DNA of 64,000 nt from Dictyostelium discoideum (lineage: Eukaryota), in the NCBI GenBank assembly GCA_000004695.1, contig CM000150.2, positions 3,968,001 through 4,032,000 of the forward strand, written 5' to 3'. Under the pieces are notes generated by a model that was not told the origin of the DNA, made no database searches, and worked only from the letters and a program-made list of their open reading frames with translations. Shown here piece by piece: positions 6,871 to 50,085 of this stretch. Numbering within the stretch: the first letter of the stretch is position 1; each line of letters starts with the position of its first letter. A program made the position numbers and the translations under genes.

Positions 6871-8380
6871 AAAAAGAAAAAACTTTTATATATATATGTG
6901 ATGTTATTTATTATTTCAAAAACAAAAAAAAAAAAAAAATATAAACAAAAAATAAAAAACAAAAAAACAAAAATAAAAAAAAGATAAAAAAAATAAAAAA
7001 CAAGAAAAAAAAAAAAAAACTAGTTTGTAAAATCTACTTTGTAAATAAATTTATATTTTCTTTTTTTGAAAAATGTAACATATGTGCAAAGTGTTGTGTA
7101 TTTTTTTTTTTTTAAAAAAAAAAAAATTTTGATTGTTATTTTGTTTTATTTTATTTTTTCCCTTCCTTATTACCTAAATTATAATTATCTGTAAAAAACA
7201 GCGTGCCTTTTTAAAAATATTGTTAGGCAGTTTGTTTGGTGTGCAAACAAAAAAAAAAAAAAAATAAAAAAAAATAAAAAAAAAAAAAATAAAAAAAAAA
7301 AATTAATTTTTTTCAAAATATCCTTTTTTTTTTTTTAAAACTTAAATTTTTTTTGTTCTATTTTTATTTTTAAATTCTATTTTTATTTTTAATTAATTAT
7401 AATAAATAAAATAATTTAAATTATTATGTAAAAGATTATGGATAATTATTTTAAATTTATTTATGAAAAAAAAAAAATAAAAAAAATAATAAAAATAAAA
7501 AAAATTAAAAAAAATTAAAAAAAAAAATTGTGGGAAATTTGGTGGTTCAAAAATAAGCATTAATATTTTAAAAAATTAAATTTTAATTTGCAATTTAGTA
7601 AATGAATCAATTAATTAATCAATTAATGAATGATTGAGTGGATGAATTAATTAATTAATTAATTATATATCGTTATAATTTACTGATGATGATAAATTCG
7701 TATCGATTTTTAATGGATATGTTACACCTTTTTTCATAGTTTTATATTTATAAATTAATATACCACTCTCTCCTCTATCTCTCTCTTTATCTATATCTAT
7801 ATTATTCTTAATAAAATCCTATTCTAATTAATTTTTTTTTTTTTTTTAAAAAATTAAATTGCACCACACATATAAAAAAAAACATCAAAAAAAAAAAAAG
7901 ATCTCTTTTGAATTATTTTTTTTATTTTAACTTTCATTTTTTATTTTTATTTTTTTTATTACTCATCTTTATATTCATTAATTGTATGTATACATAGTTG
8001 ATGTGGGGAAATTTCAAAAAAATTACACTACAACAAATAACTTACCTTGGTGATTCTAGGTGGATCAAATGGAATATATTCATCCGTTGTTTTTCTTCAA
8101 AAATAAAAAAATAATTACAAAGTAATTAAATTTTTTTATTTTTTTTATTTTTTTTTTTAAACAATAATTTAAATTTATTAATTCTTAATATGTATAGATA
8201 AATAGAGCACTCAAAAATACTCAAAATGATATAAAAATTAAAAAAAATGAATGTAATCATTCTGTTTTTTTGAATTTTTTTTTTTTTTTTCAAATCAAAA
8301 TAAATTTTATTTTTTTTTTTATTTTTTGGTCTAAACTAGTTGGCATGAGGAGTTTTAAATATATTGAAATACTGATGATT

Positions 8381-37378: not shown

Positions 37379-40300
37379 TCTTTTTTTTTTATAAATCAAC
37401 CAATAATGATAAAATAATTTTCAAAACAATAGGTTAAAAATCATAAACACTAGAAACCATTGTAACTTATGTTGTTTTTGAATCAAAAACCATTAGAATA
37501 CTCATAAATACCATAAACAAATATATTAACATTAATATTATTAAAAATTTCTCATAATAAAAGAAATAATTATTTTTAAAAAACAAAGAATTTATTATTG
37601 TTTTGTAATTGTAGAAAATTTTACTATTTATTATAGAGTGGCTAGTTTGGAAGTACTGTGCTTGGTAAACAATAGTCTTTTATAATTTGATTTTTAAATA
37701 TTTTCAATTTGTTTGATGTATTCTGTTTTGTTACAAATTGAGAGTGTTTTGATAATGATAGTTTATAGTTTTTAACTTTGTTTATGCAATCCAAGTTTGC
37801 GGTACCATTTACTCTATTTATAGGTAGATATCCAAAAAATCTTTAAAGTTCGATTCCAGGTTTAAAGATTTTTTGTTTTTTTTTTGATATAAATAAACTA
37901 TTGTAGTATACAATTAGTATGTTATTTTTTATTTATTTATTTTAGGTTTTTTAGTTTTTGTGAATTTAAAATAGTATGTTATTTTAGATTAGGTAATTAA
38001 TAATTAATTGGTGGTGTAATTGTTGGAATTGGTTCATTTGTGTTTATGCTCCATTCTTTTTTAAATTTTTTGATGGTTTCGGACCATTGGGTTTCTTTTT
38101 GAGTTTTTGTGAGGTTGTTTTTAATTGAGTATTGGTTAAAGTTTGATAAAGTTCTTGAATATTCCAATCTTATTAGCTTGTGCCATTTTGATTTTAATAT
38201 ATCATAATCTAGTGTTGTGTTGTTTATTTGGTTGTTCCAATTATCAATTGATTGAGTTATATTGATGTCAAATAATGATTTGCATAACCATATCCATATT
38301 TGGTGAATAACTAATGAGATTATGTTCCAATATGCATGTGTTCTGACTAGATCAAGATTTGTGTTTATATAATTCCAGTTGAACCTGTATTTTTTATATT
38401 GTGCGTTTTCTGCAAAATGAAAATTAATATTGATAGTTGGATCTGGTTTAAATGCTTTGTTGTTTGTTTGTGGTTTATAAATGAGTGTGTATAATTTTGT
38501 TGTTTGGTTTTTTGTTAGTGACCAGTTTTTGTTTCCATTGCAATTTTTATAAATAAAATATTTTAATTTGTCGTGGTTTATGAAGTTGAATGTGTGCTGA
38601 CAATTGAAAAACAAATGACCATAGGGATCATTATTCATTTCATTGTTGCAAATGGGGCAAACTTTGTTGTGTAGATGATTAATCGGAAGACATCTAGCAT
38701 GGAATCTTTGCATTGTATCACGGCCTTTTGGATCTTTTAATTTTTGAATTTTGACAAATAGTTGGTCGTATGTGTATTTCCATAATAGTTGTATTGATTG
38801 TTGGTGCGAAGTAAGAAGTAGATCTGAATATTTCTTGCCAATATAGTCTTTTGATTTACATTGGTGATTGTTTAGTATTGTCGAGTAGATTTCTTTGAGT
38901 GTTGGTGGTAATGGAATATTATTTGTGTTTAATGTTTGAGAGGTTTGATTTTTTATTAATATTGGTTGTAGGATTTGAACTTTATCTTTTAGATATCCAA
39001 TTTGAGTTGCATAGTTTTCCCATTCTTTTTTGATTTTTATAAGGTATGGAGAAGAGATTGATTTGTTGATGATTTGATCCATCCAACTTATCATGTATAT
39101 TGAATTTTTTGCAGATTTATGCATTTGTAAAAATCTGTTGTATATCCAAATCTTTTGAGCAACTTGTCGTAATTGTATATTCCACATACCCCAACCACCT
39201 TCTTTTAATGGTTTTAATGATCTATCATAACACATCGAAGGTATTTTTGCACGTGAATGGATGGTTGATGTGTTGTTTTCAATGGAATTGGTATTGAGAG
39301 TTGGTGATTCAGAATTTGCGGGAGAATTCATAAACCATGAGATTAATTTATTAATTTGAATTTCTTCATCTTTTGTAAATTCTTCAAGGTATGATAAATA
39401 TGTTATTGGTGATAGTGAGTAGGTGTTTATGATGGTTGTTTTTGTTTTTAAAATGTTGTGCCACTAGTTTTCCATAGTACTAATGATTTATTCAACGTTT
39501 TCATTGTTTCTGGTAATTTCCTATGTAAACCTTTATGATTAAAGAAATAGCCAAGGACTCTTTCAGATTGATCTTTTTTGGTTATTGGTATTCTTTTTGA
39601 TTGTGAAATATTGTTTATTATGTGTTTATCAGTGATTTTGTGGGGTTGATTTCTATTATTGCACTTTTGTCAAAATTTAATGATGATGATGTTGAAGCGC
39701 AGAAATTATCGAAATGTTTGATTGATTGTTGTTGTTGTTCGTAGTTGATGTTGTATGTTGTAGAGTCGTCTGCAAATTGGGTAAATTTGATTTTAATTTG
39801 TGGATTGGGTGAAATTGGTAATCCAATTATTGAATTGTCTGCATTGTTCTTGCTTATATTTCAATTACAATTACAAATAAAGTGGCTGAGATTGGGTCAC
39901 CTTGTTTTACACCTCTTTTAATATCGAATTTTCTGGTCGTTTTACCATTAATTGAAATTTTTGCTTGTGAGTCAGATAATAGCTTGTGGATTAAATTTAT
40001 TAATTTTATTGGTATACCAATATGAATTAATGTTCTTTTAATACTATCGTGAGAGATAGAATCAAATGCTTTAAAGAAGTCAATAGTGTGATGATACCAG
40101 GGAGGTTTTTAGATTTGAGGTAGTTGATTAATTCATTGATGTTGATGTTGTCTATGATGAATCTGTGGGGTACGAAACCAGTTTGGTTGTTATTTATGAT
40201 GAAAGGAAGTATTCTTAGAAGACGTGCATTGATTACTTTTGAGAGGATCTTGTAATCAGTGTTTAGAAGTGTAATGGGACGACGATTTGATATGAGTAAG

Positions 40301-41345
40301 GGGTTGCCTTTCTTGTATATTGTGTGTATAAGACCTTCGGTGAATTCTGTTGTGATGTGGTGAGGATTTTCTAGTATATCGTTGAATAATGCAGTGAGAA
40401 TTGGTTTAACTTGGTTTAAATGATTAATGTAGAAAGCATTTGCAACGCCATCTGGACCGGGTGATTTGTTGGGGTTACAGGTTTTAATTGCAGCTTCAAC
40501 TTCATCTTGTATAAATGGTGAGTCTAAACCATTACAATATTCATTTTTTATGATGGGCCATGTGTTTAGCATGAGCTGGTGAGTAATTGGACAACATATT
40601 TGTAAGCTATATAGATTTGTGTAGAATTCAACAAATGCATTTTCAATTTGGTCGGATGTAATGATGTTACCATATTGGATTGATTCAATTTTTGCATCTT
40701 TTGATCTTTTGTTTAGTATTGCTGATAGATACTTGATAGGTATTTCTCCATTTATATGTTTTTTTAATATGTTTGTGTGGTTTTGATGTAATTTGTTTTT
40801 GTTACATATAATATTGTATTCGGCGATGCATTGTTCTTCAAGATGTTTGAATTTTGCTGCTTTTTCTAATAGTATTTGTTTTGCACGTTGAGTTTGTTTG
40901 TCTTTGTTATATTGATAGTTTTTTAGAGTTTTAATAATTTTTGATTTTACTTTTGACCAGTTTGTAAATTGATTGATTGATGTGTTATTGTGATTAGTTA
41001 TTAAATGATTGATAATATTGATTGCTTCATGGTCATTTGCAGTACCAGGTGATAATATCCATCTTTTCTTATGTTTATTTATTTGAAAAGGTGAAGAAAT
41101 TGTTGTTGATATTGGATTATGATCTGATAATGAAGATGGAATTTGGTGGACTTGTGTATATATATTTTCAGGGTCTATTCTATTGTATTGAGTATATATT
41201 CTATCTAATCTGTTGCCATGTGTATGAGTTGGAGTGTTTTTAAATTCACCTTGATCAATTAAATGGTGTTGGTATGTGTAGGATTGGATAATATCATCTA
41301 ATAGTGAATTGTCGTTGTGGATACAGTTGAAATCTCCTGCGATAA
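37379..41345 (-). mobile_element. 5'-truncated, frameshifted non-LTR (LINE-type) retrotransposon of the tRNA-gene-targeted TRE family. Most likely TRE3-type, since it lies downstream of a tRNA gene. ORF2 keeps the C-terminal part of the APE endonuclease, the reverse transcriptase and a C-terminal CCHC-like zinc knuckle. Ends are approximate.
   Basis: Minus-strand translation gives APE motifs ...ISAGDFNCIH...SDHNPI. RT motifs: KSPGPDGVANAFY (RT N-terminus), FVPHRFI, DFFKAFDSISHD (only after a frameshift), QFADDSTTY (YxDD box). Zinc knuckle CPICNNEMNNDPYGHLFFNCQH. Several frameshifts and stops between 39330 and 40030. The 3' end was put at the T-run near 37379-37392. The 5' end lies ~70 bp from the tRNA-Tyr 3' end. 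Confidence 0.8.
37997..40572 (-). pseudogene. Disrupted ORF2 (endonuclease, reverse transcriptase, Zn-knuckle) of the TRE-like retrotransposon.
   Basis: ORF-track fragments 37997..39331 and 40027..40572 (minus) are pieces of one pol-like ORF. They are separated by frameshifts and stops, and the FADD box falls in the gap. Confidence 0.75.
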
Positions 41346-41414
41346 TAGATACATGTTGGGATTGGTTTTGTTTCTGGAATCGAACATGCGTCTGTTGACA
41401 TCACGAAAGAAAAG

Positions 41415-41497
41415 TCCGGCTTGCCAGATTCGAACTAGCAACCGATTGATCACTTTCTATACTACAGTCAATCGCGCTACCATTGCGCCAAAGCCGG
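41415..41497 (-). tRNA. tRNA-Tyr (anticodon GUA) with an ~11 nt intron 3' of the anticodon.
   Basis: Minus-strand sequence CCGGCTT-TG-GCGC-AATGGTA-GCGC-G-ATTGA-CTGTAG[TATAGAAAGTG]A-TCAAT-CGGTT-GCTAG-TTCGAAT-CTGGC-AAGCCGG-A. It has a 7-bp acceptor stem, a 4-bp D stem, and a 5-bp anticodon stem formed across the intron. The T-loop is TTCGAAT and the discriminator is A. It is followed by a T-run terminator (TTTTCTTTCG). Confidence 0.85.
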
Positions 41498-41789
41498 ATG
41501 ATGAAAATAAAATTATTTTTACCAATTAAGGTTCGTTTTTTTTTCAATTTTTATTAAAATTGTCAGAGAATACCCTTAAACTGGCACCAAATAACTCAAT
41601 GTCGGTATCTACAGCAAATTCACCTAGATATCCATATGATTTTATGGAGCTGTATATTTAATAGGAATTGGATGATTGTTGATAAAAGAATAAAATTAAA
41701 TAAAAATACTTTTTTTTTTTTTGATGTAAATCAAAAACGAGTTTTTTAAATAGAAATAATTTATTGTTATAATTTAGAAAAAAAAAATT

Positions 41790-42233
41790 TTAAACTTTAC
41801 TTAAAGTAAGTTTATATTGGTAATTGTATGTACTACCCATGATAGCAAAACCACCACTATAAGATTTTACAATTTTGGAACTAGTTGGAATTTGATCTTT
41901 ACTGGTGCAATCTTCGCTATAGAAAACACCACTATAACCTTTAGTTATTTTATATTCAACATGGAGATTTTCACCAGAATTGTAAACACTAACTTTATTT
42001 GGATCACTGAAAAATGTTGATCCAATACCCTTTGAAAATGTATGATTATATGAACTAAAAACAATATTATTTTGTAATAATTGAGCCAACAAGAATATAC
42101 TTTGTGAACCATTATCCAAAGTTTGAGGAATTTCTGGTAATTTACATTTACTACCAAACATTTGAGCATTTGATACTAAACATAATGAAACTAAGAATAA
42201 TAAAAAAAAGGTAAAACTATTAGAAATTTTCAT
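41790..42233 (-). CDS. Small secreted protein, tandem-family copy 1 (147 aa). Signal peptide plus a ~125-aa domain with two conserved Cys.
   Basis: MKISNSFTFFLLFLVSLCLVSNAQ|MFGSKCKLPEIPQTLDNGSQS...EDCTSKDQIPTSS...; 70-80% identical to copy 2. Confidence 0.7.
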   Translation of the reverse strand: MKISNSFTFFLLFLVSLCLVSNAQMFGSKCKLPEIPQTLDNGSQSIFLLAQLLQNNIVFSSYNHTFSKGIGSTFFSDPNKVSVYNSGENLHVEYKITKGYSGVFYSEDCTSKDQIPTSSKIVKSYSGGFAIMGSTYNYQYKLTLSKV

Positions 42234-43449
42234 ATTTTTATTTTTATTTATTTAAAGAATTAAAGTTTAATATATAGAAAACAAATTAAAAAAAAAAAGG
42301 GTATAAATAGATTTTTTTTATCCTTTTTTTTTTTTAATTTTTAAAAATTAAATATTTCAATTTCAAAAACAACCCCAGAAAATTTAAGATAACTTAAATT
42401 TTTAAAAACTATTTCTAATTTAAAAAAATATTAAACAATTTTTTTAACTTAAAATTAAAAATTACCATCTTTGCAAATAAAAATAATTAAAGATATATTT
42501 ATAGTTATTTTTATTTTAAAAAATATTAAAGAAGTACGATTTTTATTGGATATTATTAAATTTAAAAACAGTTAAAATTTTAAATTTGAAAAATCATACT
42601 AAAAATTTTTTGAATTTTTCTTTTAATAGGAAAATGAAAAGGTTTTGGGGAATGTTTAAAAAATAAATTTTTATTTTTTTTATTTTTAAATTTTAACTTC
42701 TAAAAAAAAAAAACAAAAAAAAGAAATGAATAATAGAAATCTGATTAATGATAATCCTACATAATCAAATTATTCAAAACTGACCAACATAAACACCAAC
42801 GCCATCGAAAACATTAACAGATCCAATGAGAGTTTTAACCAATCAAAATGATGTAACTTTAGAATGTTTCGATCAAGAACATCAATCATAAATTTCGATA
42901 ATTGTATTAAATTTACCGCTCATTAAAACAAATTGGAGATAAGGTAATACTTCTTTAAAATCCAAATTGATGATCATTCGAACTATGGTGGATTCATTAA
43001 TGAGCAATCATCAATTCAAAAGCATCATCAACTGAAAACCACAATTCAAATATTATCAATATCACTATCATTAATTTGTATTTCAATACCAAATTATAAA
43101 CAATCAATAATCCTGATCCTTCAGTACTAATATATACTTATCTATCATTGGTTTCCATTTCTTTTGCTGCTAAATTTATTGCCAGACAGTTATTTTGGTG
43201 TCCCTCCAAATTACATAAACAGTTTTTAGGATAATATTTAACTCATTATTCTCTTTGACAATTCTATTAGCATCTTCAAATGATGAACTTTCTATTTCAT
43301 TTTATAATAAGACATTTAAAAATTATAATTCCATTTTGGGAAAAGGAGCCATTTTGTAAAACTTTAATAAAAATACATTTTTTTTATGTAAATCATAAAC
43401 AAGTTTTCTAAACAGAAATAATTTATTTTTTTTTTTATAAAAAATAGTT

Positions 43450-43893
43450 TTAAACTTTAGTTAAGATAAATTTATATTGGTAATAATATGTACTACCCAT
43501 GGTAACAGAGCCACCACTATAAATTACTACACTATAGGAATCAGATGGAATTTGACCTTTACTTGTGCAATCTTCGTTATAATAAACTCCACTATAACCG
43601 CTAACTATTTTATATTCAATATGGAAATTTTCACCAGAATTGTAAACACTAACTTTATTTGAATCACTGAAAAATGTTGATCCAGTACCTTTTGGAAATG
43701 TATGATTATATGAACTAATAACAACATTATTTTGCATTAATTGAGCCAACATGAATACACTGTGTGAACCATTATCCAAAGTTTGAGGGATTTCTGGTAA
43801 ATTACATTTTTTACCAGACATTTGAGCATTTGATACTGCACATAACGAAACAAAGAATAGTAAAAAAAAGGTAAAACTATTAGGAATTTTCAT
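43450..43893 (-). CDS. Small secreted protein, tandem-family copy 2 (147 aa).
   Basis: MKIPNSFTFFLLFFVSLCAVSNAQ|MSGKKCNLPEIPQTLDNGSHS...; intact ORF. Confidence 0.7.
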   Translation of the reverse strand: MKIPNSFTFFLLFFVSLCAVSNAQMSGKKCNLPEIPQTLDNGSHSVFMLAQLMQNNVVISSYNHTFPKGTGSTFFSDSNKVSVYNSGENFHIEYKIVSGYSGVYYNEDCTSKGQIPSDSYSVVIYSGGSVTMGSTYYYQYKFILTKV

Positions 43894-45336
43894 GTTTTTA
43901 TTTTTATTTATTTTAAAGAATTAAAGTTTATATAGAAAATAAATGAAAAATAAAAATGAGAAAAAATAAATGTTTAAAATAGATTTTTATTTTTCTTATC
44001 CCTTTTTTTTTTTTTTTTTATTTTTAATTTTTAAAAATTAAATATTTCAATTTCAAAACCTACCTCAGAAAATATTAAATTTCAGATAACTTTAATTTTT
44101 GAAAAACTAACTCAATTAAAAAAATAAGTTTAATGAAAAAAATAAAAACAATTCTATTTGACCCTAAAAATAAAAATTCCCATCTTAAGCAATATTGTTT
44201 TTTTTTTTATTTTTTTTTTATTTTTTTAAAATAAAAGAAGTATGATTTTTAATTGAATATTTATAAAACCGGATACAATTTTCAATTTGAAGTATTATTC
44301 TGAATACTTTTTTTTCTTTTAATACATTTTAAAATAATTATTTTAATTAAAAAAAAAATTAAAAAATAATAATAAAATAATAACAATTTTTTAATTTGTT
44401 AATTAATAAAATTATTGGTTGAAAATTAAAAAGTTTTGGGGGGTGTGAAAAATAAATTTTTTTTTTTTATTTTTTAAACCCCAAAACTTCTGGAAAAAAA
44501 AAAAAAAAAACAAAAAAGAATTGAATAATCCTATGGAATCAAATTATTCAAAACGGACATTAACACTAACACCACCAAATCAGATTAATGGTTATCCTAT
44601 GGAATCAAATTTTTCAAAAACATAAACAGACCAAATGACAGGTTTAACCAATCAAAATGATATTAATAATAGATATTAAATTTACAAACTGAAATGTAAA
44701 TATATATAAATTAATTGTTACATACATATACATACATACATACACACACATATATATTATATACTATCGCAATAATTAAATTAAAAAAGTTTGTTCTTTA
44801 CAAGTACACATTCAAAGTGATCCAAACTCAGCAAATACATCAACAACCAATAATATTATTATAAAATTAGAATGGTTCAATCAAGCAACCATTCAATTTG
44901 CTAATAGCTAGTATTAAATACTTCTCATTAAAACAATTTGGAGATAAATAGCAATAATCGATTCAAAACCATCATCAATTGAAAATCAATAATTAGATTC
45001 AAAAATGAACTCAATTCAAACATTATCAATATTGCAATGATTCATTGGTAATGTAATACCCAATAATAGATAGCTATCTATTAATACTATAAACAATCAA
45101 TAATCATGACTTTACAGTATTAATAGATAGCTATCTATTATTGGGTTCCATTTCCTTTGCTGCTGTTGGTGTCCCTCAAGTTTACATTCAAAAAGTTTTA
45201 AGGATATTATTTAACTCATTATTCTCTCTGACAATCTTCTAATGATGAACTTTCTTTTTCAATTTAAAATAAAGTATTAAATAATTATAAGGCCATTTTG
45301 GTAAAAGGAGAATAAAACATTGTAAAACTCTTATAT

Positions 45337-45373
<37 letters not shown>

Positions 45374-45406
45374 ATGATATACAGAAATAATTTATTGTTT
45401 TATAAT

Positions 45407-45838
45407 TTAAACTTTACTTAAATTAAGTTTATATTTGTATGAGTGTGTACTACCCATGATAACAAAACCACCATCATAATATCTTAGAATATCGGAACTA
45501 GTTGGAATTTGATCTTTACTTGTGCAATCTTCGTTATAAAAAACACCACTATAACCCTTAACTTTTTTATATTCAACATGGAAATTTTCACCAGAATTGT
45601 AAACACTAACTTTATTTGAATCACTGAAAAATGATGATCCAGTACCTTTTGGAAATGTATGATTATATGAACTAATAACAACATTATTTTGCATTAATTG
45701 AGCTAACAAGAATACACTTTGTGAACCATTATCCAAAGTTTGAGGAATTAATGGTAAATTACATTTTTTACCAGACTTTTGAGCATTTGATACTACACAT
45801 AATGAAACAAAGAATATTAAAAAAAAAGGTAAAACTTA
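45407..45838 (-). pseudogene. Small secreted protein, tandem-family copy 3. The N-terminal (signal peptide) region is frameshifted relative to the ATG at 45836-45838.
   Basis: The downstream frame encodes ...SNAQKSGKKCNLPLIPQTLDNGSQSVF... colinear with copies 1-2. Compared with copy 2 there is a 2-bp loss (cctaaTAgtttt to tctaagtttt) and a T9 run where copy 2 has T8. This puts ATGAAAATTTCTAAG out of frame, with a stop after 11 codons. It could instead be a homopolymer sequencing error. Confidence 0.5.
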
Positions 45839-46518
45839 GAAATTTTCATATTTTTATTTTTATTAATATAAAGAATTAAAGTTTAATATATATAGAAAAT
45901 AAATGAAAAATAATTATTAAAAAAAAGTGTTTAAATAGATTTGTTTTTTTAATCCTTTTTTTTTTTTTGTTATTTAAATTTTTAAAAAAATTAAATATTT
46001 CCATTTCAAAACTAACCCCATCGAAATTTAAAATTTCAGACATATTATCTAAAAAAAAACTAATGCTAATAAAAAAAAAAAATAAGTTTTATAAAAGAAA
46101 AAAAATTCTATTTGACTAAAAATAATTCTATTTGACTAAAAATAAAATTACCATCTTGACCAATAAAAATAATTAAATATTTATTAATAGTTATTTTTTT
46201 TTTTTTTTTTAATTCAAAAATAAAAAATGGATGATTACTATTGGAAATTATTAAATTTAAAACCGTTGCAATTTTAAAATTTGTAATATCTTTATAACTT
46301 TTTTTGTTTTTTTTCTTTTTTATTAGAAAGATTAATAATAATAATAATAATAATAATAAATTAACAATAATTAAAAATAATTGGTTTATTTGTACCGAAT
46401 TTTTGGTGGAAAATGAAAAAGTTTTGGAGGGGGATATTTATAAAATAAATTTTTTTTTTTTATTTTTTTAATTTTTCTTGAAAAAAAAAAAAAAAAAAAA
46501 AAAACAAAACAAAAAAAG

Positions 46519-46675
46519 AAATGAATAATGAAAATCAGATTAATGATAATCCTATAGAATCAAATGATTCAAAACCGACACCAACACCAACACCATCGAA
46601 AACAATAACAGATCAAATGATCGGTTTAACCAACCAAAATGATGTTAATAATATATTAAATTTACAAACTGAAAT
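46519..46675 (+). CDS. KxDL-motif protein (KXD1/BORCS4, BORC/BLOC-1-related complex subunit) homolog, exon 1.
   Basis: MNNENQINDNPIESNDSKPTPTPTPSKTITDQMIGLTNQNDVNNILNLQTE; donor AT|GTAACT, phase 2. Not in the ORF track. Confidence 0.6.
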
Positions 46676-46836
46676 GTAACTTAATATTAATATTTTTATA
46701 TATATATATATATCAATAAATATATTCGTTACATATACTATATCGCAATAATTAAATTATAATAAAAGTTTTCTAACAATATATATTTTATCATTACTCA
46801 TTCTGTCTATCTCCCTCTTACTAAAACATTATTTAG

Positions 46837-46989
46837 ATTAAAAAAACAATATGAAACCAATCATATGTTATCACACTTCAATGAATATTCATCTCAAAAA
46901 TATCATCAAATGTCTAGCGATTTTGAAAAGCATACAAAAATGTTAAAAGAAATGAAAAAAGATTTAGATTATATATTTAAAAAAACAAG
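46837..46989 (+). CDS. KXD1 homolog, exon 2 (KxDL motif).
   Basis: (I)LKKQYETNHMLSHFNEYSSQKYHQMSSDFEKHTKMLKEMKKDLDYIFKKT aligns with human KXD1 [51 protein letters not shown]. Frame consistent across both introns. Confidence 0.75.
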
Positions 46990-47090
46990 GTAAATATTTA
47001 TAAATTATTCCTATTATTATTATTATTATCATTTAATTTAATAAATACTTTATTTATTATTTTATTAATTATTACTTTATTTATTTACAG

Positions 47091-47186
47091 AAATTTACAA
47101 ATATTATTAAATGAAAAATTTCAAATACCTGGCGTAACTGATCAATACAATGAAGAAGAAGATGAAGATGATGATGGTGATAATTA
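47091..47186 (+). CDS. KXD1 homolog, exon 3 (acidic C-terminus).
   Basis: (R)NLQILLNEKFQIPGVTDQYNEEEDEDDDGDN*, compare KXD1 ...SFLEEEDEDP. Confidence 0.7.
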
Positions 47187-47345
47187 AATAATAATTAAAT
47201 TGTAAAAGTAAAAATAATAATAATAATAAAATGATCATTTGTATATAAATATAGAATCAATAAAATTTTAGAAAATAAAAAAAAAAAAAACAATGTTATA
47301 TTTGGTTATGGGTATAAATGTACAATGTATTTTTCTTTTCTTTTT

Positions 47346-47377
<32 letters not shown>

Positions 47378-47408
47378 TATATATTGTTTTTTTTTTTTTT
47401 TTTTATAT

Positions 47409-47483
47409 TTATTGTTGTTGTTTTAAATTTGCTGTCCATTTTTCAACATTAAAATTTTGATATTTCTTTACAAATTCATGATT
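47409..47483 (-). CDS. mekA: MAP kinase kinase (MEK), exon 4 (C-terminal tail NHEFVKKYQNFNVEKWTANLKQQQ*).
   Basis: Phase-0 acceptor TTTAG on the minus strand. Completes kinase subdomain XI after ...PTERPTASNLL|GTATGT. The symbol is tentative, given only because D. discoideum is reported to have a single classical MEK1. Confidence 0.6.
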   Translation of the reverse strand, partial: NHEFVKKYQNFNVEKWTANLKQQQ

Positions 47484-47579
47484 CTAAAGGATAAAAATAA
47501 AAAAAAAGAAATTGGTTAATATTAAATAGTGATTATTAAATAAATTTTTTTTTTTTTTTTTTAAAAAATAAAAACATAC

Positions 47580-47779
47580 TAATAAGTTTGAAGCTGTTGG
47601 TCTTTCAGTTGGTTCTTTTTGTAAACATTCAGAAATGAATGACCTAAATTCCTTTGAAAAAGTTGATGGTAAAATTGGTACCTCTTCTTTTACGATACAA
47701 TCTAAAAGTACCCAAAATCCCATACCCTCTGGTACACTACTACCACTATCAACTAATCCACCATTGCTTATATCTAATA

Positions 47780-47848
<69 letters not shown>

Positions 47849-48647
47849 TCCTTATATTGTTATTACTATTATTTATATCTAAATTTTGAAGTTGTAATTG
47901 TAATGGTTGTTGTTGTTGTTGCTGTTGTTGTTGCTGTTGTTGTAATGGTTGTTGTTGTTGTTGCTGTTGTTGTTGCTGTTGTTGTAATGGTTGTTGTTGT
48001 TGATGTGGTAAATTAGAACCATAAGGGAATTTACCTATTGCGCATTCTAAAATTGTTAAACCTAAACTCCAAATTTCAGAATCGAAAGAATAAGACCTAC
48101 CACTTATACGTTCAGGAGACATATAGGTGACAGTACCAACCCAAGTTACAGCCTTTGAGAGAGTATGTTGTAATTGACCACTAACACCGAAATCTGCAAT
48201 CTTTGCTTCACCTTTATTGTTTACCAGAATATTTGAAGGTTTAATATCACGATGAATTAAATGTAACTTTCTGTGAAGGTAAACTAAACCTTGTAACACT
48301 TGAAATGCGATTTTACCCAAAACCGGTTCAGGAATGGTCGAAGTTTTCTTCATGATATCACTTAGTGATCCAAGTTCCATGAATTCCAATGCAATGAAAA
48401 TTGAGCCCTCTGTATAGAATGCATCATAAAATGAAACTATATATGGATAAGAGGTCTTGTGTAATGTCTTTAGCTCCAATATAATCTGTTTTCTAATATT
48501 CTCTTGAATATCCAATGTTATCACTTTCAATGCAATATATGTACCAGATGTTTCATGATATGCTAACTTTACAACACCACCTGCTCCTCTTCCTAATACT
48601 CTTATTATTTTTAAATCTTTTAAATCATATGATAAATTTGTATCATA
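47580..48647 (-). CDS. mekA: MAP kinase kinase, exon 3 (kinase domain with poly-Q/poly-N insertion).
   Basis: KYDTNLSYDLKDLKIIRVLGRGAGGVVKLAYHETSGT (GxGxxG)...HRDIKPSNILVNNKGEAKIADFGVSGQLQHTLSKAVTWVGTVTYMSPER (HRDxKPxN, DFG, SxxxS/T MAP2K activation loop). Confidence 0.85.
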
Positions 48648-48752
48648 CTTTTAAAAAATAAAGAAGGGAGAGAAAAAAAAAAAAAAAATAATTAATAAAT
48701 TATAATAAATATATATAAATATATATATATATATAAAATTTAAAATATTTAC

Positions 48753-49341
48753 ATGTGGGTGATTATTAGCACTATTATTTAAATAATTATTACTACTACC
48801 ACTACTACTTATATCAAATGAAGAATTTGATGATGATTGTAATGCATTAAAATTATTGAAATTATTATTATTACCATAATTATTGTAGTTATTAAAATTA
48901 TTAAAATTATTATTACTATTATTATAATTATTATTATTATTATTACTATTATTATTATTATTATAATTATTATAATTATTATTATTATTATAATAATTTG
49001 TAAATGTATTATTAAAAGAATGTGAAGAAGTTGGTGTTGATATTGAAATACCAGATAGTTGAGGTGAATCAATACCATTATTCATAAGATTATTAAAATT
49101 ATTAAGATTATTGTTATTATTATTATTATTGTTGTTGTTGTTGTTGTTATAAAATCCTTGATTGAAATCCATACTTTCAGAAGAAGTTGGTGAAGCTAAC
49201 AACTGTGGGTTTAAATTTGAATGAAGTGATTTATTTTTATTTCTATCATTTACTGAACTGTTTTTTGGTGATTCACCTTTAATTAATAATCCTTTTTTGT
49301 TAATTAATAAATCACCTTCTTTAAATGTACCACTTGTAGTT
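48753..49341 (-). CDS. mekA: MAP kinase kinase, exon 2 (Asn/Tyr-rich low-complexity N-terminal region).
   Basis: (L)TTSGTFKEGDLLINKKGLLIKGESPKNSSVNDRNKNKSLHSNLNPQLLASPTSSESMDF...NNHPH|GTAAAT. Confidence 0.65.
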
Positions 49342-49448
49342 CTTTTTAAATTTTTTTTATTTTTGTTTTATTTTTTTTAATTATATTTTCAATAATTAAT
49401 ATTTATTTACTTAAATTTTTAAAAAATTAAAATTATATTAATACATAC

Positions 49449-49578
49449 AATGAATAACTATTTTCATTATTTTGAACAGGTGTTTCAACTTTTAAATTCA
49501 CTTTTTTACCAGTTTTAACTCCGACCGCATTATTATTATTATTATTATTATTACTACTATTATTATTACTATTATTAC

Positions 49579-49622
<44 letters not shown>

Positions 49623-49699
49623 TTATTAGTGGTGGGTGTATTAATGATATTATTACCACTACTACTTATATTTGTATTTGTATTTGTATTTGTATTCAT
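49449..49699 (-). CDS. mekA: MAP kinase kinase, exon 1 (MNTNTNTNTNISSSGNNIINTPTTNNNN...).
   Basis: ATG at 49697-49699. Donor TCATT|GTATGT (phase 2) plus acceptor A gives Leu, in frame with exon 2. Confidence 0.55.
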
Positions 49700-49716
49700 A
49701 ATTATTATTTTTTGTT

Positions 49717-49768
<52 letters not shown>

Positions 49769-50085
49769 TAAAAATAAAAATAAAATATATATATATAAAA
49801 AATATTTTATTTTATTTTGTTCAAAAAGAAGAAAAAAAAAATCTTAAAATAAAAAAAATTTTTTCATTTTTTTTTTTTTTTTTTTTTAAAAATGTATGAT
49901 ATAATTTCAATTATTTCACAACAACTTTTTTTTTTTTTTCTTTTTGATCAAATTAAATTAAAAAAAAAAAAAGTGAGCAGTATTAATTTTAAAATATGGA
50001 TTAAAGAATATCAAAATTTTATGTTTATCTGTTTTGAAATCATTTAAAATTTTCAAATAGCAATAAATGGTAAGATAACTTTTTA

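What the first reader, a model, noticed from the sequence alone, without database searches (positions are those of the whole stretch)
41530..47190. Three-fold tandem segmental duplication carrying a novel small secreted-protein gene plus decaying fragments of the KXD1 gene
Three ~1.7-1.9 kb units in direct repeat (approximately 41.7-43.4, 43.4-45.3 and 45.3-47.0 kb) each carry a minus-strand gene for a 147-aa protein with a signal peptide. The mature part has two conserved Cys and conserved NGS/NHT sequons. Copies 1 and 2 are intact and diverged (~75% aa identity). Copy 3 has a 2-bp deletion plus a T8-to-T9 change inside the signal-peptide codons that frameshifts it from its ATG. Each unit also contains, upstream of the secreted gene, a copy of the 5' part of the plus-strand KXD1 gene (ATGAATAAT..GATAATCCT...CAAATGA..GGTTTAACCAATCAAAATGAT...). 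This fragment is intact only in the third unit, where it continues into the real three-exon KXD1 gene (46519-47186), and is broken by stops or substitutions in units 1 and 2. So the duplication unit was defined by recombination inside KXD1 exon 1, and the array is caught in the act of pseudogenising. The array abuts a tRNA-Tyr gene and a TRE retrotransposon, a region type known to be recombinogenic.
Basis: seen in the sequence. Interest (0 to 1): 0.6.

Follow-up and report, generated by a model that had tools for sequence, protein, structure and literature searches.

The report
Tandem array of orphan secreted-protein genes
A stretch of a Dictyostelium discoideum chromosome carries three old head-to-tail copies of a small gene for a secreted protein found only in close relatives, one copy now broken, each dragging a dead piece of the neighbouring KXD1 gene; this is ordinary gene birth-and-death, caught in detail.

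Summary
Window 41690-46770 contains two full repeat units (1660 and 1957 bp) and a third that ends inside the real KXD1 gene. Similarity extends well beyond the coding parts. Each unit carries a minus-strand 147-codon gene for a signal-peptide protein with two invariant Cys. Copies 1 and 2 are intact. Copy 3 has a 2-bp deletion plus an extra T in a T8 run, giving a stop at codon 11. A second, independent assembly has the same lesions. Units 1 and 2 carry dead KXD1 5' fragments.

Three points need correction:
- The original breakpoint lay in KXD1 intron 1, not exon 1. Unit 2 keeps all of exon 1 plus about 115 nt of intron.
- Each junction also holds a 0.33-0.4 kb spacer body of unknown origin.
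- The array is old, with coding regions 11-12% diverged. Two other isolates have two units and bear scars of losing the middle one. An outgroup has one unit. The retrotransposon is a later, AX4-lineage-only insertion.

The protein family is restricted to D. discoideum and close relatives. It has no Pfam match and no convincing fold match, although the model is confident and all-beta. Its function is unknown. Copy 2 is DDB_G0270004, copy 3 is the patched model DDB_G0271008, and copy 1 is unannotated. Interest is modest.

The parts
37456..41400 (-). 5'-truncated non-LTR retrotransposon lying downstream of the tRNA gene (a TRE3-type position). It is not part of the repeat and is specific to the AX4 lineage.
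   Evidence: The RVT_1 domain is in ORF 40027-40572. The 444-aa ORF has 93-99% identical copies on several AX4 chromosomes. Synteny with L002/L003 stops at about 37455 and resumes at about 41690-41710, and no RT gene lies there in L002-L004. TRE3 elements integrate about 100 bp downstream of tRNA genes (PMC5006619). The ends are approximate.
41415..41497 (-). tRNA-Tyr(GTA) gene with an intron. It sits just outside the left edge of the array and is conserved at this position in all four genomes.
   Evidence: Rfam RF00005 at 57.8 bits, E=7e-11. ARAGORN finds it in the window and calls the ortholog tRNA-Tyr gta in L002. It is also present beside the single-copy gene in L004.
41690..43349 (.). Repeat unit 1 (1660 bp): 3' flank, sec1, intergenic promoter region, dead KXD1 fragment and spacer X1.
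   Evidence: The left edge is fuzzy, roughly 41600-41690.
41790..42233 (-). sec1: an intact 147-aa ORF with a signal-peptide-like N-terminus, absent from all protein databases searched.
   Evidence: ORF. The exact sequence is not in the 15-billion-protein collection. The best hit is 85% identical.
42726..42855 (+). Dead KXD1 fragment 1, covering exon-1 codons 1-42, with two in-frame stops.
   Evidence: tblastn 70-79% identity, E=1e-9. Translation is MNNRNLINDNPT*.... Alignment.
42856..43349 (.). Spacer X1. Its roughly 330-nt body is of unknown origin. Its right-hand 100-190 nt is homologous to the 3' flank of the sec gene.
   Evidence: 69% identical to X2 and found nowhere else in the window. 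Found only in inter-unit spacers of related loci. No similarity to the rest of KXD1.
43350..45306 (.). Repeat unit 2 (1957 bp), the most diverged unit. It has no ortholog in the two-unit isolates.
43450..43893 (-). sec2: an intact 147-aa ORF, identical to DDB_G0270004 (AX4 hypothetical protein).
   Evidence: P0004 has the identical sequence.
44509..44790 (+). Dead KXD1 fragment 2. It covers all of exon 1 (ATG changed to TTG, an internal 39-nt duplication, stops), the exon/intron boundary and about 115 nt of intron 1.
   Evidence: tblastn E=5e-11. Translation, alignment. The local alignment score has z=23 against shuffles.
44791..45306 (.). Spacer X2. It includes a perfect 31-bp-stem hairpin at 45058-45146.
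   Evidence: Hairpin fold is -52.8 kcal/mol, z=-11.8.
45307..46770 (.). Repeat unit 3, the terminal and original copy. Homology with unit 2 runs into intron 1 of the functional KXD1 gene.
45407..45849 (-). sec3 pseudogene. A 2-bp deletion near 45836/45837 plus an A9 run at 45819-45827 (T9 in the coding sense) gives a net -1 shift and a stop at codon 11. Annotated in AX4 as the patched model DDB_G0271008.
   Evidence: Identical in independent assembly L001. Intact orthologs exist in L002/L003, with 94% nt identity. P0017/P0005 are models without a signal peptide.
46521..47187 (+). Functional KXD1 (KxDL-motif protein) gene of 134 aa, with exons 46521-46675, 46837-46989 and 47091-47187.
   Evidence: Pfam PF10241 at E=8.8e-21, spanning both splice junctions. 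A 134-aa KxDL gene is called at the same place in L001/L003/L004. Splice sites were read.

Best explanation
This is an old tandem segmental duplication in Dictyostelium discoideum (AX4-type chromosome 1), evolving by gene birth and death.

The ancestral locus read: tRNA-Tyr, then one sec gene (minus strand), then a roughly 0.6-kb shared promoter region, then KXD1 (plus strand). One duplication copied a segment running from roughly 0.1-0.2 kb downstream of the sec stop codon to a point at least 115 nt into KXD1 intron 1. About 0.35 kb of unrelated DNA ended up at the junction. A second duplication of the KXD1-proximal unit produced three units. Both events predate the split of AX4 from two other sequenced D. 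discoideum isolates.

Later changes:
- The KXD1 fragments decayed, because they were never complete genes.
- Unit 1 lost about 225 nt at the junction between the KXD1 fragment and the spacer.
- The middle unit was deleted in the lineage of the two other isolates, by recombination between the two spacers.
- In the AX4 lineage, sec3 acquired a frameshift in its signal-peptide codons.
- In the AX4 lineage, a retrotransposon inserted downstream of the tRNA gene.

The cargo gene encodes a 147-aa precursor. It has an N-terminal signal peptide and a 123-aa all-beta mature domain, with two invariant Cys and one invariant N-x-T sequon. The family is found only in D. discoideum, D. cf. discoideum, D. 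citrinum and D. dimigraforme. The intact copies are kept open by selection but change quickly at the amino-acid level.

Shown: the anatomy, the orthology and the order of events. Inferred: secretion, glycosylation, a disulfide bond, and an extracellular role that tolerates or favours rapid change, such as dealing with bacteria or with other amoebae.
For: Repeat structure beyond the coding sequence.

Organism: sec2 is identical to the AX4 protein DDB_G0270004.

Copy number:
- Three units in the window and in L001.
- Two units in L002 and L003, each with a dead KXD1 exon-1 fragment between the copies.
- One unit with no fragment in D. cf. discoideum L004.

Orthology:
- Unit 3 against the proximal units: CDS 94%, intergenic 92-93%, KXD1 exon 1 98%.
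- Unit 1 against the distal units: 3' flank 88-92%, dead KXD1 fragment 88-91%, and the same fragment/spacer junction.
- The NJ tree puts sec3 with the proximal copies at 95% bootstrap, and sec2 outside that pair at 76%.

The middle unit is old and was lost elsewhere:
- The single spacer of L002/L003 matches the AX4 spacer 1-2 at 85-94% for most of its length.
- Over its last roughly 120 nt it matches the spacer 2-3 at 89-91% against 69%.
- L003 keeps an inverted 240-nt remnant that is 87% identical to the unit-2 intergenic region, against 72% for unit 3.

Breakpoint in intron 1.

Selection on the ORFs:
- One gapped column in 444 CDS columns, against 477 of 737 in the intergenic region.
- P=0.02 of escaping a stop codon after 54 random AT-biased substitutions.
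- 47 invariant columns across 11 proteins.
- dN/dS is 0.4-0.75 between orthologs and about 1.0-1.5 between paralogs.

The frameshift is real.

Family restriction: a profile HMM against 1.84 billion representatives finds only three true clusters, all Dictyostelium. There is no Pfam hit.

Fold: AlphaFold2 on the mature domain gives pLDDT 84 and pTM 0.76, with eight strands.
Against: - The position of the single-copy outgroup gene in the tree is unresolved (27% support). So L004 may have collapsed from an array rather than preserve the ancestral state.
- The origin of the spacer body is unknown. 'Filler DNA at the junction' is an inference.
- The grouping of unit 1 with the distal copies is weak on the coding sequence alone (38% bootstrap). 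It rests on the flanks and the shared junction.
- dN/dS near 1 between paralogs rests on only about 90-100 synonymous sites. It is not significantly above 1 and is also compatible with relaxed constraint.
- No expression, secretion or glycosylation data were available. No signal-peptide predictor was run.
- The structural model rests on 14 closely related sequences.
Confidence: 0.8

Rival explanations
1. The three-unit array is a recent expansion specific to AX4 or to laboratory strains. It arose from an ancestral two-unit array by unequal crossing-over, so the middle unit is new.
For: Two other D. discoideum isolates have only two units. Unequal crossing-over between tandem units is the usual way such arrays grow.
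Against: - A new hybrid unit should be nearly identical to its parent units. Unit 2 is the most diverged of the three: CDS 87-89% and intergenic 68-76% to everything.
- X1 and X2 are only 69% identical, whereas X1 is 79-93% identical to its ortholog in L002.
- Unit 2 keeps KXD1 intron sequence that unit 1 and its orthologs have lost.
- L003 carries an inverted remnant of unit-2 type.
Confidence: 0.07
2. Each unit originally contained a complete KXD1 gene, and the spacer X is the decayed remainder of it (end of intron 1, exons 2-3).
For: The unknown part of X2 (about 395 nt) is close in length to the rest of KXD1 after the homologous intron segment (about 416 nt). This is my reading.
Against: - tblastn with exons 2 and 3 finds nothing in units 1 or 2.
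- An nhmmer profile of four X copies finds nothing in KXD1 from four genomes.
- Local alignment scores equal those of shuffled sequence (z=0.75, -0.39 and 0.62), whereas the exon-1/intron-1 control gives z=23.
- Exon 1 in the same units is still 80-86% identical. Neutral decay alone cannot have erased exons 2-3.
Confidence: 0.05
3. Copy 3 is not dead. The frameshift is an assembly error, or it is bypassed, so there are three working paralogs. Bypass could occur by slippage on the T9 run, since a T10 run would restore the frame, or by the spliced model annotated as DDB_G0271008.
For: - The lesion lies in and next to a homopolymer.
- With T10 the N-terminus reads MKISKFYLFFLIFFVSLCVVSNAQ, a plausible signal peptide (my reading).
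- The rest of the ORF is still open and 94% identical to intact orthologs.
- Two annotation pipelines produced spliced models.
Against: - An independent assembly has exactly the same 2-bp deletion and T9 run.
- The spliced models lack a signal peptide.
- The AX4 model borrows a 3' exon from spacer X2. Both features are typical of automated rescue of a pseudogene.
- No evidence for slippage is available.
Confidence: 0.08
4. The array was created or is driven by the recombinogenic tRNA/TRE neighbourhood.
For: The array starts about 200 nt from a tRNA-Tyr gene. In the window a retrotransposon lies on the other side of that tRNA.
Against: - The tRNA lies outside the repeat unit.
- It sits beside a single-copy gene in L004 and beside two-unit arrays in L002/L003 that have no retrotransposon.
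- No retrotransposon sequence occurs at any unit junction.
- 61% of D. discoideum tRNA genes have a TRE nearby (PMC5006619). So the association is expected by chance.
Confidence: 0.05

Closest known systems
Tandem segmental duplications with truncated neighbour-gene fragments at unit junctions (birth-and-death evolution of tandem gene families; unprocessed pseudogenes)
   Same: It has head-to-tail units that include coding and non-coding DNA. A partial copy of the flanking gene is dead on arrival. Copy number differs between isolates through recombination between units. Individual copies are lost to frameshifts.
   Different: Each junction also carries 0.33-0.4 kb of DNA whose source could not be found. 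The units are old (11-12% CDS divergence), not recent copy-number variants.
Dictyostelium discoideum AX4 hypothetical proteins DDB_G0270004, DDB_G0271008 and DDB_G0270144
   Same: sec2 is identical to DDB_G0270004. sec3 underlies DDB_G0271008. DDB_G0270144 is a fourth, sec1-like copy elsewhere on the same chromosome-sized contig, and it is also frameshifted.
   Different: sec1 has no database entry. The DDB_G0271008 model hides the pseudogene state of sec3. No function, domain or publication was found for any of them.
KXD1 / KxDL-motif protein family (Pfam PF10241)
   Same: The gene at 46521-47187 is a full member: E=8.8e-21, KKDL motif, 134 aa.
   Different: The copies in units 1 and 2 hold only the poorly conserved N-terminal exon. 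That exon contributes just the first third of the domain. They carry stops, so they are gene relics and not family members.
TRE3 tRNA-gene-targeted non-LTR retrotransposons of Dictyostelium
   Same: The element has a reverse-transcriptase ORF, is multi-copy in AX4, and lies downstream of a tRNA gene (PMC5006619).
   Different: Subfamily assignment by ORF2 phylogeny was not done. The element is a neighbour of the array, not a component of it.
Small beta-sandwich domains in the PDB (FHA domains, secretin beta-domains, a designed beta protein)

Membership tests
Tandem segmental duplication | Head-to-tail direct repeats whose similarity covers non-coding as well as coding DNA | tested here: met
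   Alignments of 1.36-3.4 kb at E=0. Intergenic 73-79%, 3' flank 74-81%, spacers 69%.
Tandem segmental duplication | Regular unit period and collinear order of parts in each unit | tested here: met
   Periods of 1660 and 1957 nt. The order sec, intergenic, KXD1 5' part, spacer is the same in all units.
Tandem segmental duplication | Orthologous locus with a different unit number in relatives | tested here: met
   Three, two, two and one units in the window/L001, L002, L003 and L004.
Unprocessed pseudogene (sec3) | A disabling lesion in an otherwise homologous ORF, reproducible in independent sequence, with intact orthologs | tested here: met
   Net -1 frameshift and a stop at codon 11. Identical in L001. 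L002/L003 orthologs are intact.
KxDL / KXD1 (PF10241) | Pfam domain above the gathering score, with the KxDL motif | tested here: met
   74.5 bits against a cut-off of 27.2, for the spliced 46521-47187 product.
KxDL / KXD1 (PF10241), fragments in units 1 and 2 | A complete, open KxDL domain | tested here: not met
   Only exon 1 is present, with stops. Exons 2-3 are undetectable.
Classical secreted protein | A cleavable N-terminal signal peptide and no membrane anchor | tested here: inconclusive
   By inspection, the sequence has an MK n-region, a 14-residue hydrophobic core, SNA-Q at -3/-1, and no C-terminal hydrophobic tail. AlphaFold2 gives a helix at residues 5-21. No signal-peptide predictor or secretome data were available.
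Any described protein family or fold (sec proteins) | A significant match to Pfam or to a solved or predicted structure | tested here: not met
TRE3 retrotransposon | A non-LTR element with RT located about 100 bp downstream of a tRNA gene | tested here: met
   RVT_1. The element lies 3' of the tRNA. Its far end maps about 140 nt downstream of the tRNA in the empty allele of L002. The definition comes from PMC5006619.
TRE3 retrotransposon | ORF2 clusters with TRE3 elements in a phylogeny | not tested
   Database names were uninformative, all 'hypothetical protein'.

The most novel reading that the evidence does not exclude
The sec genes encode a structurally new extracellular protein family restricted to this lineage. 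Its copy number (one to three at this locus) and on/off state vary between isolates as an adaptive, contingency-like system. The on/off state would be set by a homopolymer-linked frameshift that a single extra T would reverse. Such a system could act in amoeba-bacterium or amoeba-amoeba interactions.
Probability: 0.1. Interest if true: 0.55.

Novelty: new member of a known kind. Interest (0 to 1): 0.3.

Why it matters
The main value is as a clean, well-dated example. It shows how a compact, AT-rich protist genome makes and loses genes. Four related genomes preserve one-, two- and three-unit states, together with the deletion scars.

It also flags concrete annotation errors in the reference genome:
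- an intact gene (sec1) that is missing from the annotation
- a pseudogene (sec3) disguised by a patched gene model.

Finally, it points to a small orphan family with a confident but unmatched all-beta model. That makes it a reasonable target for anyone studying Dictyostelium secreted factors. It does not bear on a long-standing open question.

Tried and rejected
- I tested whether the spacer X is the decayed remainder of KXD1. tblastn, an nhmmer profile and shuffle-calibrated local alignment were all negative.
- I tested whether X comes from the tRNA-side flank. Only the last 100 nt or so is clearly homologous to the sec 3' flank. A 20-nt motif (CAGTTATTTTG[G]TGTCCCTCC) and a weak gapped alignment suggest up to about 190 nt in L002 (z=3.2, 1 of 300 shuffles). 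AX4, L003 and L004 flanks were negative.
- I looked for X elsewhere in the window and in seven related loci and found none. No Dictyostelium whole-genome DNA collection was available.
- The first structure prediction, with the signal peptide included, gave pLDDT 51 and was discarded.
- The profile-search hits P0015 (2805 aa, 14 stretches) and P0016 (bacterial Ig-like repeats) were rejected. Their scores are inflated by repeats, and their domains are PKD-like or Big_13.
- Literature searches found nothing for the gene identifiers, UniProt accessions or hairpin sequence. A general search on Dictyostelium tandem duplications returned nothing relevant.
- The Rfam scan of the array found only the tRNA above threshold. 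The miRNA-precursor look-alikes are far below their gathering scores.
- The afdb50 fold library was not installed.
- No genomic place was on record for the fourth copy, DDB_G0270144.

Full report
**Source of the window.** The window is Dictyostelium discoideum. The 147-aa product of 43450-43893(-) is identical to AX4 protein DDB_G0270004, which lies on the 4.92-Mb chromosome-sized contig. A second assembly, GCA_054883475.1 (locus L001), aligns to window 37450-49915 at 99.7% identity.

**The repeat.**
- blastn of 41-48 kb against itself gives three long direct alignments at E=0: 41682-42854/45312-46645, 41692-42908/43359-44716 and 42186-45409/44159-47411.
- The repeat finder gives a 300-nt family at 41779, 43439 and 45396, with spacings of 1660 and 1957 nt.
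- A three-way MAFFT alignment shows the same order of parts in each unit. The order is about 100 nt of 3' flank, the minus-strand ORF, 0.5-0.67 kb of intergenic DNA, then the 5' end of KXD1.
- Identity between units is 88-89% in the ORF, 73-79% in the intergenic DNA, 74-81% in the 3' flank and 80-86% in the KXD1 part.
- The similarity therefore extends well beyond the coding regions.

**The cargo genes.**
- sec1 (41790-42233) and sec2 (43450-43893) are intact 147-codon ORFs and are 76% identical in protein.
- sec3 (45407-45849) reads MKISKFYLFF* from its ATG.
- Relative to the other two, sec3 has lost 2 bp (TCTAATAGTTT becomes TCTAAGTTT) and has T9 where they have T8. The net shift is -1. The rest of the ORF is open and 78% identical to sec1.
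- L001 is identical to the window throughout the array except for one intergenic T-run at 45340. The lesion is therefore real.
- In AX4, sec3 is annotated as DDB_G0271008 (P0017). In the other assembly it is a 138-aa model (P0005).
- Both models start with a mini-exon, MSEILNFDG, taken from the intergenic ORF 45876-46043. Both lack a signal peptide.
- The AX4 model also ends in an exon taken from the spacer downstream. These look like automated rescues of a pseudogene.
- The exact sec1 protein is not in the 15-billion-protein collection. In L001 its ATG starts a 1182-aa chimeric model that runs into the retrotransposon.

**The KXD1 parts.**
- Splicing 46521-46675, 46837-46989 and 47091-47187 gives 134 aa. 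The GT/AG sites were read.
- The product matches Pfam KxDL (PF10241) at E=8.8e-21 across both junctions. A 134-aa KxDL gene is called at this position in L001, and KxDL genes of 133 and 129 aa in L003 and L004.
- One residue of the protein I submitted (I for L at codon 53) was mis-spliced by hand. This does not affect the result.
- tblastn with exon 1 finds 42726-42855 in unit 1, covering codons 1-42 at 70-79% identity. It finds 44509-44670 in unit 2. Exons 2 and 3 are found only in the real gene.
- Fragment 1 translates as MNNRNLINDNPT*....
- Fragment 2 has TTG in place of ATG, an internal duplication of 39 nt, and stops.
- Fragment 2 continues through the exon-1 end (…ACTGAAAT|GTAA…) and about 115 nt of intron 1, up to …TATCGCAATAATTAAATTA….
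- The duplication breakpoint was therefore in intron 1 or beyond, not in exon 1.

**The spacer.**
- About 0.5 kb lies between each KXD1 fragment and the next sec gene. These are X1 (42856-43349) and X2 (44791-45306).
- X1 and X2 are 69% identical to each other and match nothing else in the window.
- A profile of four X copies finds only the inter-unit spacers in the window and seven related loci.
- I tested whether the 330-395-nt body of X is the remainder of KXD1. tblastn and nhmmer were negative.
- Local alignment scores equalled those of dinucleotide shuffles (z=0.75, -0.39 and 0.62). The exon-1/intron-1 control gave z=23. That idea is rejected.
- The right-hand 100 nt or so of X is the duplicated 3' flank of sec.
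- In L002 a 20-nt motif and a weak gapped alignment (z=3.2) suggest that this flank-derived part may reach about 190 nt.
- The origin of the rest is unresolved. I treat it as DNA captured at the original junction, which is an inference.

**Comparative loci.** The look-up of encoding contigs returned the orthologous region from three more genomes. tblastn then gave the content of each.

| Locus | Source | Units | Other features |
|---|---|---|---|
| L002 | D. discoideum, GCA_054859355.1 | 2 | Dead KXD1 exon-1 fragment between the copies |
| L003 | D. discoideum, GCA_054859385.1 | 2 | Dead KXD1 exon-1 fragment between the copies |
| L004 | D. cf. discoideum, GCA_054859235.1 | 1 | No KXD1 fragment |

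- All three have the tRNA next to the distal sec gene. None has the retrotransposon.
- Synteny with the window jumps from about 37455 to about 41700.
- L002 and L003 flanks are 85-94% identical to the window. L004 flanks are 82-89% identical, so L004 is the outgroup.

**Orthology and order of events.**
- Unit 3 is orthologous to the proximal units: CDS 94%, intergenic 92-93%, KXD1 exon 1 98%.
- Unit 1 is orthologous to the distal units. The 3' flank is 88-92% identical and the KXD1 fragment 88-91%. They share the same fragment/spacer junction, since L002 changes from KXD1 fragment to X at exactly the X1 position.
- Unit 2 has no ortholog and is the most diverged unit.
- An NJ tree of the coding sequences groups sec3 with the proximal copies at 95% bootstrap. 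It places sec2 as their sister at 76%. The position of L004 is unresolved.
- The single spacer of L002/L003 follows the AX4 spacer 1-2 at 85-94% for most of its length. Over its last roughly 120 nt it switches to the spacer 2-3, at 89-91% against 69%.
- L003 also holds an inverted 240-nt piece that is 87% identical to the unit-2 intergenic region 44227-44468. The counterpart in unit 3 is only 72% identical.
- Together these results show that the three-unit state predates the split of these isolates. The middle unit was removed in the L002/L003 lineage by recombination between the two spacers.
- The sec3 frameshift and the retrotransposon insertion are specific to the AX4 lineage.

**Selection.**
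- Across eight units the coding sequence has one gapped column in 444, which is the sec3 lesion. The intergenic region has 477 gapped columns in 737.
- sec1 and sec2 differ at 54 nucleotides. Random AT-biased substitutions of that number leave the ORF open in only 2% of simulations.
- Eleven family members share 47 invariant columns, including C30, C109 and N63-x-T65.
- Nei-Gojobori dN/dS is 0.36-0.75 for most orthologous pairs (0.90 for sec3 vs the L002 proximal copy) and about 1.0-1.5 between AX4 paralogs.
- With only about 90-100 synonymous sites, the values above 1 are not significant.
- The picture is a conserved core with fast-changing positions. The most variable stretch is residues 117-131.

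**The protein family.**
- Pfam finds nothing.
- A profile HMM run against 1.84 billion cluster representatives returns three true clusters, all from Dictyostelium (D. discoideum, D. cf. discoideum, D. dimigraforme). It also returns two hits inflated by repeats, which I discount.
- The word-indexed search adds D. citrinum.
- A second, single-copy locus next to an IRE1-like kinase and a proteasome subunit gene holds a more distant member, in one D. discoideum isolate and in D. dimigraforme.
- The D. citrinum member examined lies in yet another context.
- AX4 has a fourth, sec1-like copy, DDB_G0270144. Its model contains an out-of-frame stretch, so it too is damaged.
- The N-terminus (MK, then a 14-residue hydrophobic core, then SNA-Q) looks like a signal peptide, and there is no C-terminal anchor. 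This is by inspection only.
- AlphaFold2 on the mature 123 residues with 14 homologs gives pLDDT 84 and pTM 0.76, with eight strands. The full-length run was poor.
- Foldseek against the PDB and BFVD finds nothing at E<=0.001, with TM<=0.40. The AlphaFold database library was unavailable.
- No paper in the searchable library mentions these genes.
- Function is therefore unknown. My working inference is a secreted, N-glycosylated, disulfide-stabilised beta protein acting outside the cell, in a role that tolerates rapid change.

**Neighbourhood.**
- Rfam confirms the tRNA at 41415-41497(-). ARAGORN calls the ortholog tRNA-Tyr GTA.
- The element to its left has an RVT_1 ORF and 93-99% identical copies on other AX4 chromosomes.
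- It lies downstream of the tRNA, which is the TRE3-type position. TRE3 elements sit about 100 bp downstream and TRE5 about 50 bp upstream, and 61% of tRNA genes carry a TRE (PMC5006619).
- The tRNA is outside the repeat, and arrays exist without the element. I therefore see no support for a causal link.

**Verdict.** This is an ordinary but nicely resolved case of tandem duplication and birth-and-death in an orphan secreted-protein family. It comes with useful annotation corrections and an unexplained junction spacer.

Noticed in passing
window 45058-45146 (within spacer X2): A perfect inverted repeat forms a 31-bp stem with a roughly 25-nt loop (-52.8 kcal/mol, z=-11.8 against shuffles). X1 has only one arm, so this is a recent inverted duplication within an otherwise diverged spacer. 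Rfam gives only sub-threshold miRNA-precursor look-alikes. No paper holds the sequence.
   Followed up: partly
window 41790-42233 (-): sec1 is an intact, conserved 147-aa ORF that is absent from every protein source in the 15-billion-sequence collection. In GCA_054883475.1 its start codon begins a 1182-aa chimeric gene model that runs into the retrotransposon RT. It is probably a missed gene in the AX4 annotation.
   Followed up: yes
window 45407-46043 (-) and about 45020-45080: The AX4 gene model DDB_G0271008 covers the frameshifted sec3. It uses an upstream mini-exon (MSEILNFDG) and a 3' exon taken from spacer X2 (…YLLLGITLPMNHCNIDNV). The product has no signal peptide. This is likely an annotation artefact.
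   Followed up: yes
window 45819-45837: The two sec3 lesions are 2 bp lost and one T gained in a T8 run. One further T (T10) would restore the frame and give a plausible signal peptide. The extra T may be half of a compensation, or the run may slip.
   Followed up: no
L003 8650-8890 (locus coordinates; reverse-complement 7556-7796): An inverted 240-nt segment is 87% identical to the unit-2 intergenic region (window 44227-44468), in an isolate that lacks unit 2. It is flanked by the GTGTCCCTCC motif of the spacer. It is a scar of a complex deletion or inversion.
   Followed up: yes
L002 8720-8800 (locus coordinates): A partial direct duplication covers the 5' end of the tRNA-Tyr gene plus about 15 nt upstream (AAAGCCGGATGATGAAAAT occurs twice, about 50 nt apart).
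   Followed up: no
window 37456-41400: The retrotransposon next to the tRNA is 5'-truncated. Endonuclease-domain coding sequence runs to within about 60 nt of the tRNA 3' end. About 140 nt of the empty-site flank seen in L002 is not recognisable in the window. This suggests a target-site deletion or rapid divergence.
   Followed up: partly
L006 11537-14864 (D. discoideum GCA_054859355.1, second family locus): Four tandem genes of 132-139 aa with no Pfam hit lie near the second-locus family member. This is another small tandem array of uncharacterised genes.
   Followed up: no
AX4 chromosome-sized contig, outside the window: DDB_G0270144 (135 aa) is a sec1-like fourth copy. Its model contains a stretch translated from the wrong frame (…SCWLYYYKIMLLLVHIIIHFQKVLDQHFSVIQIK…), so it is another damaged family member. 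Its position could not be retrieved.
   Followed up: partly
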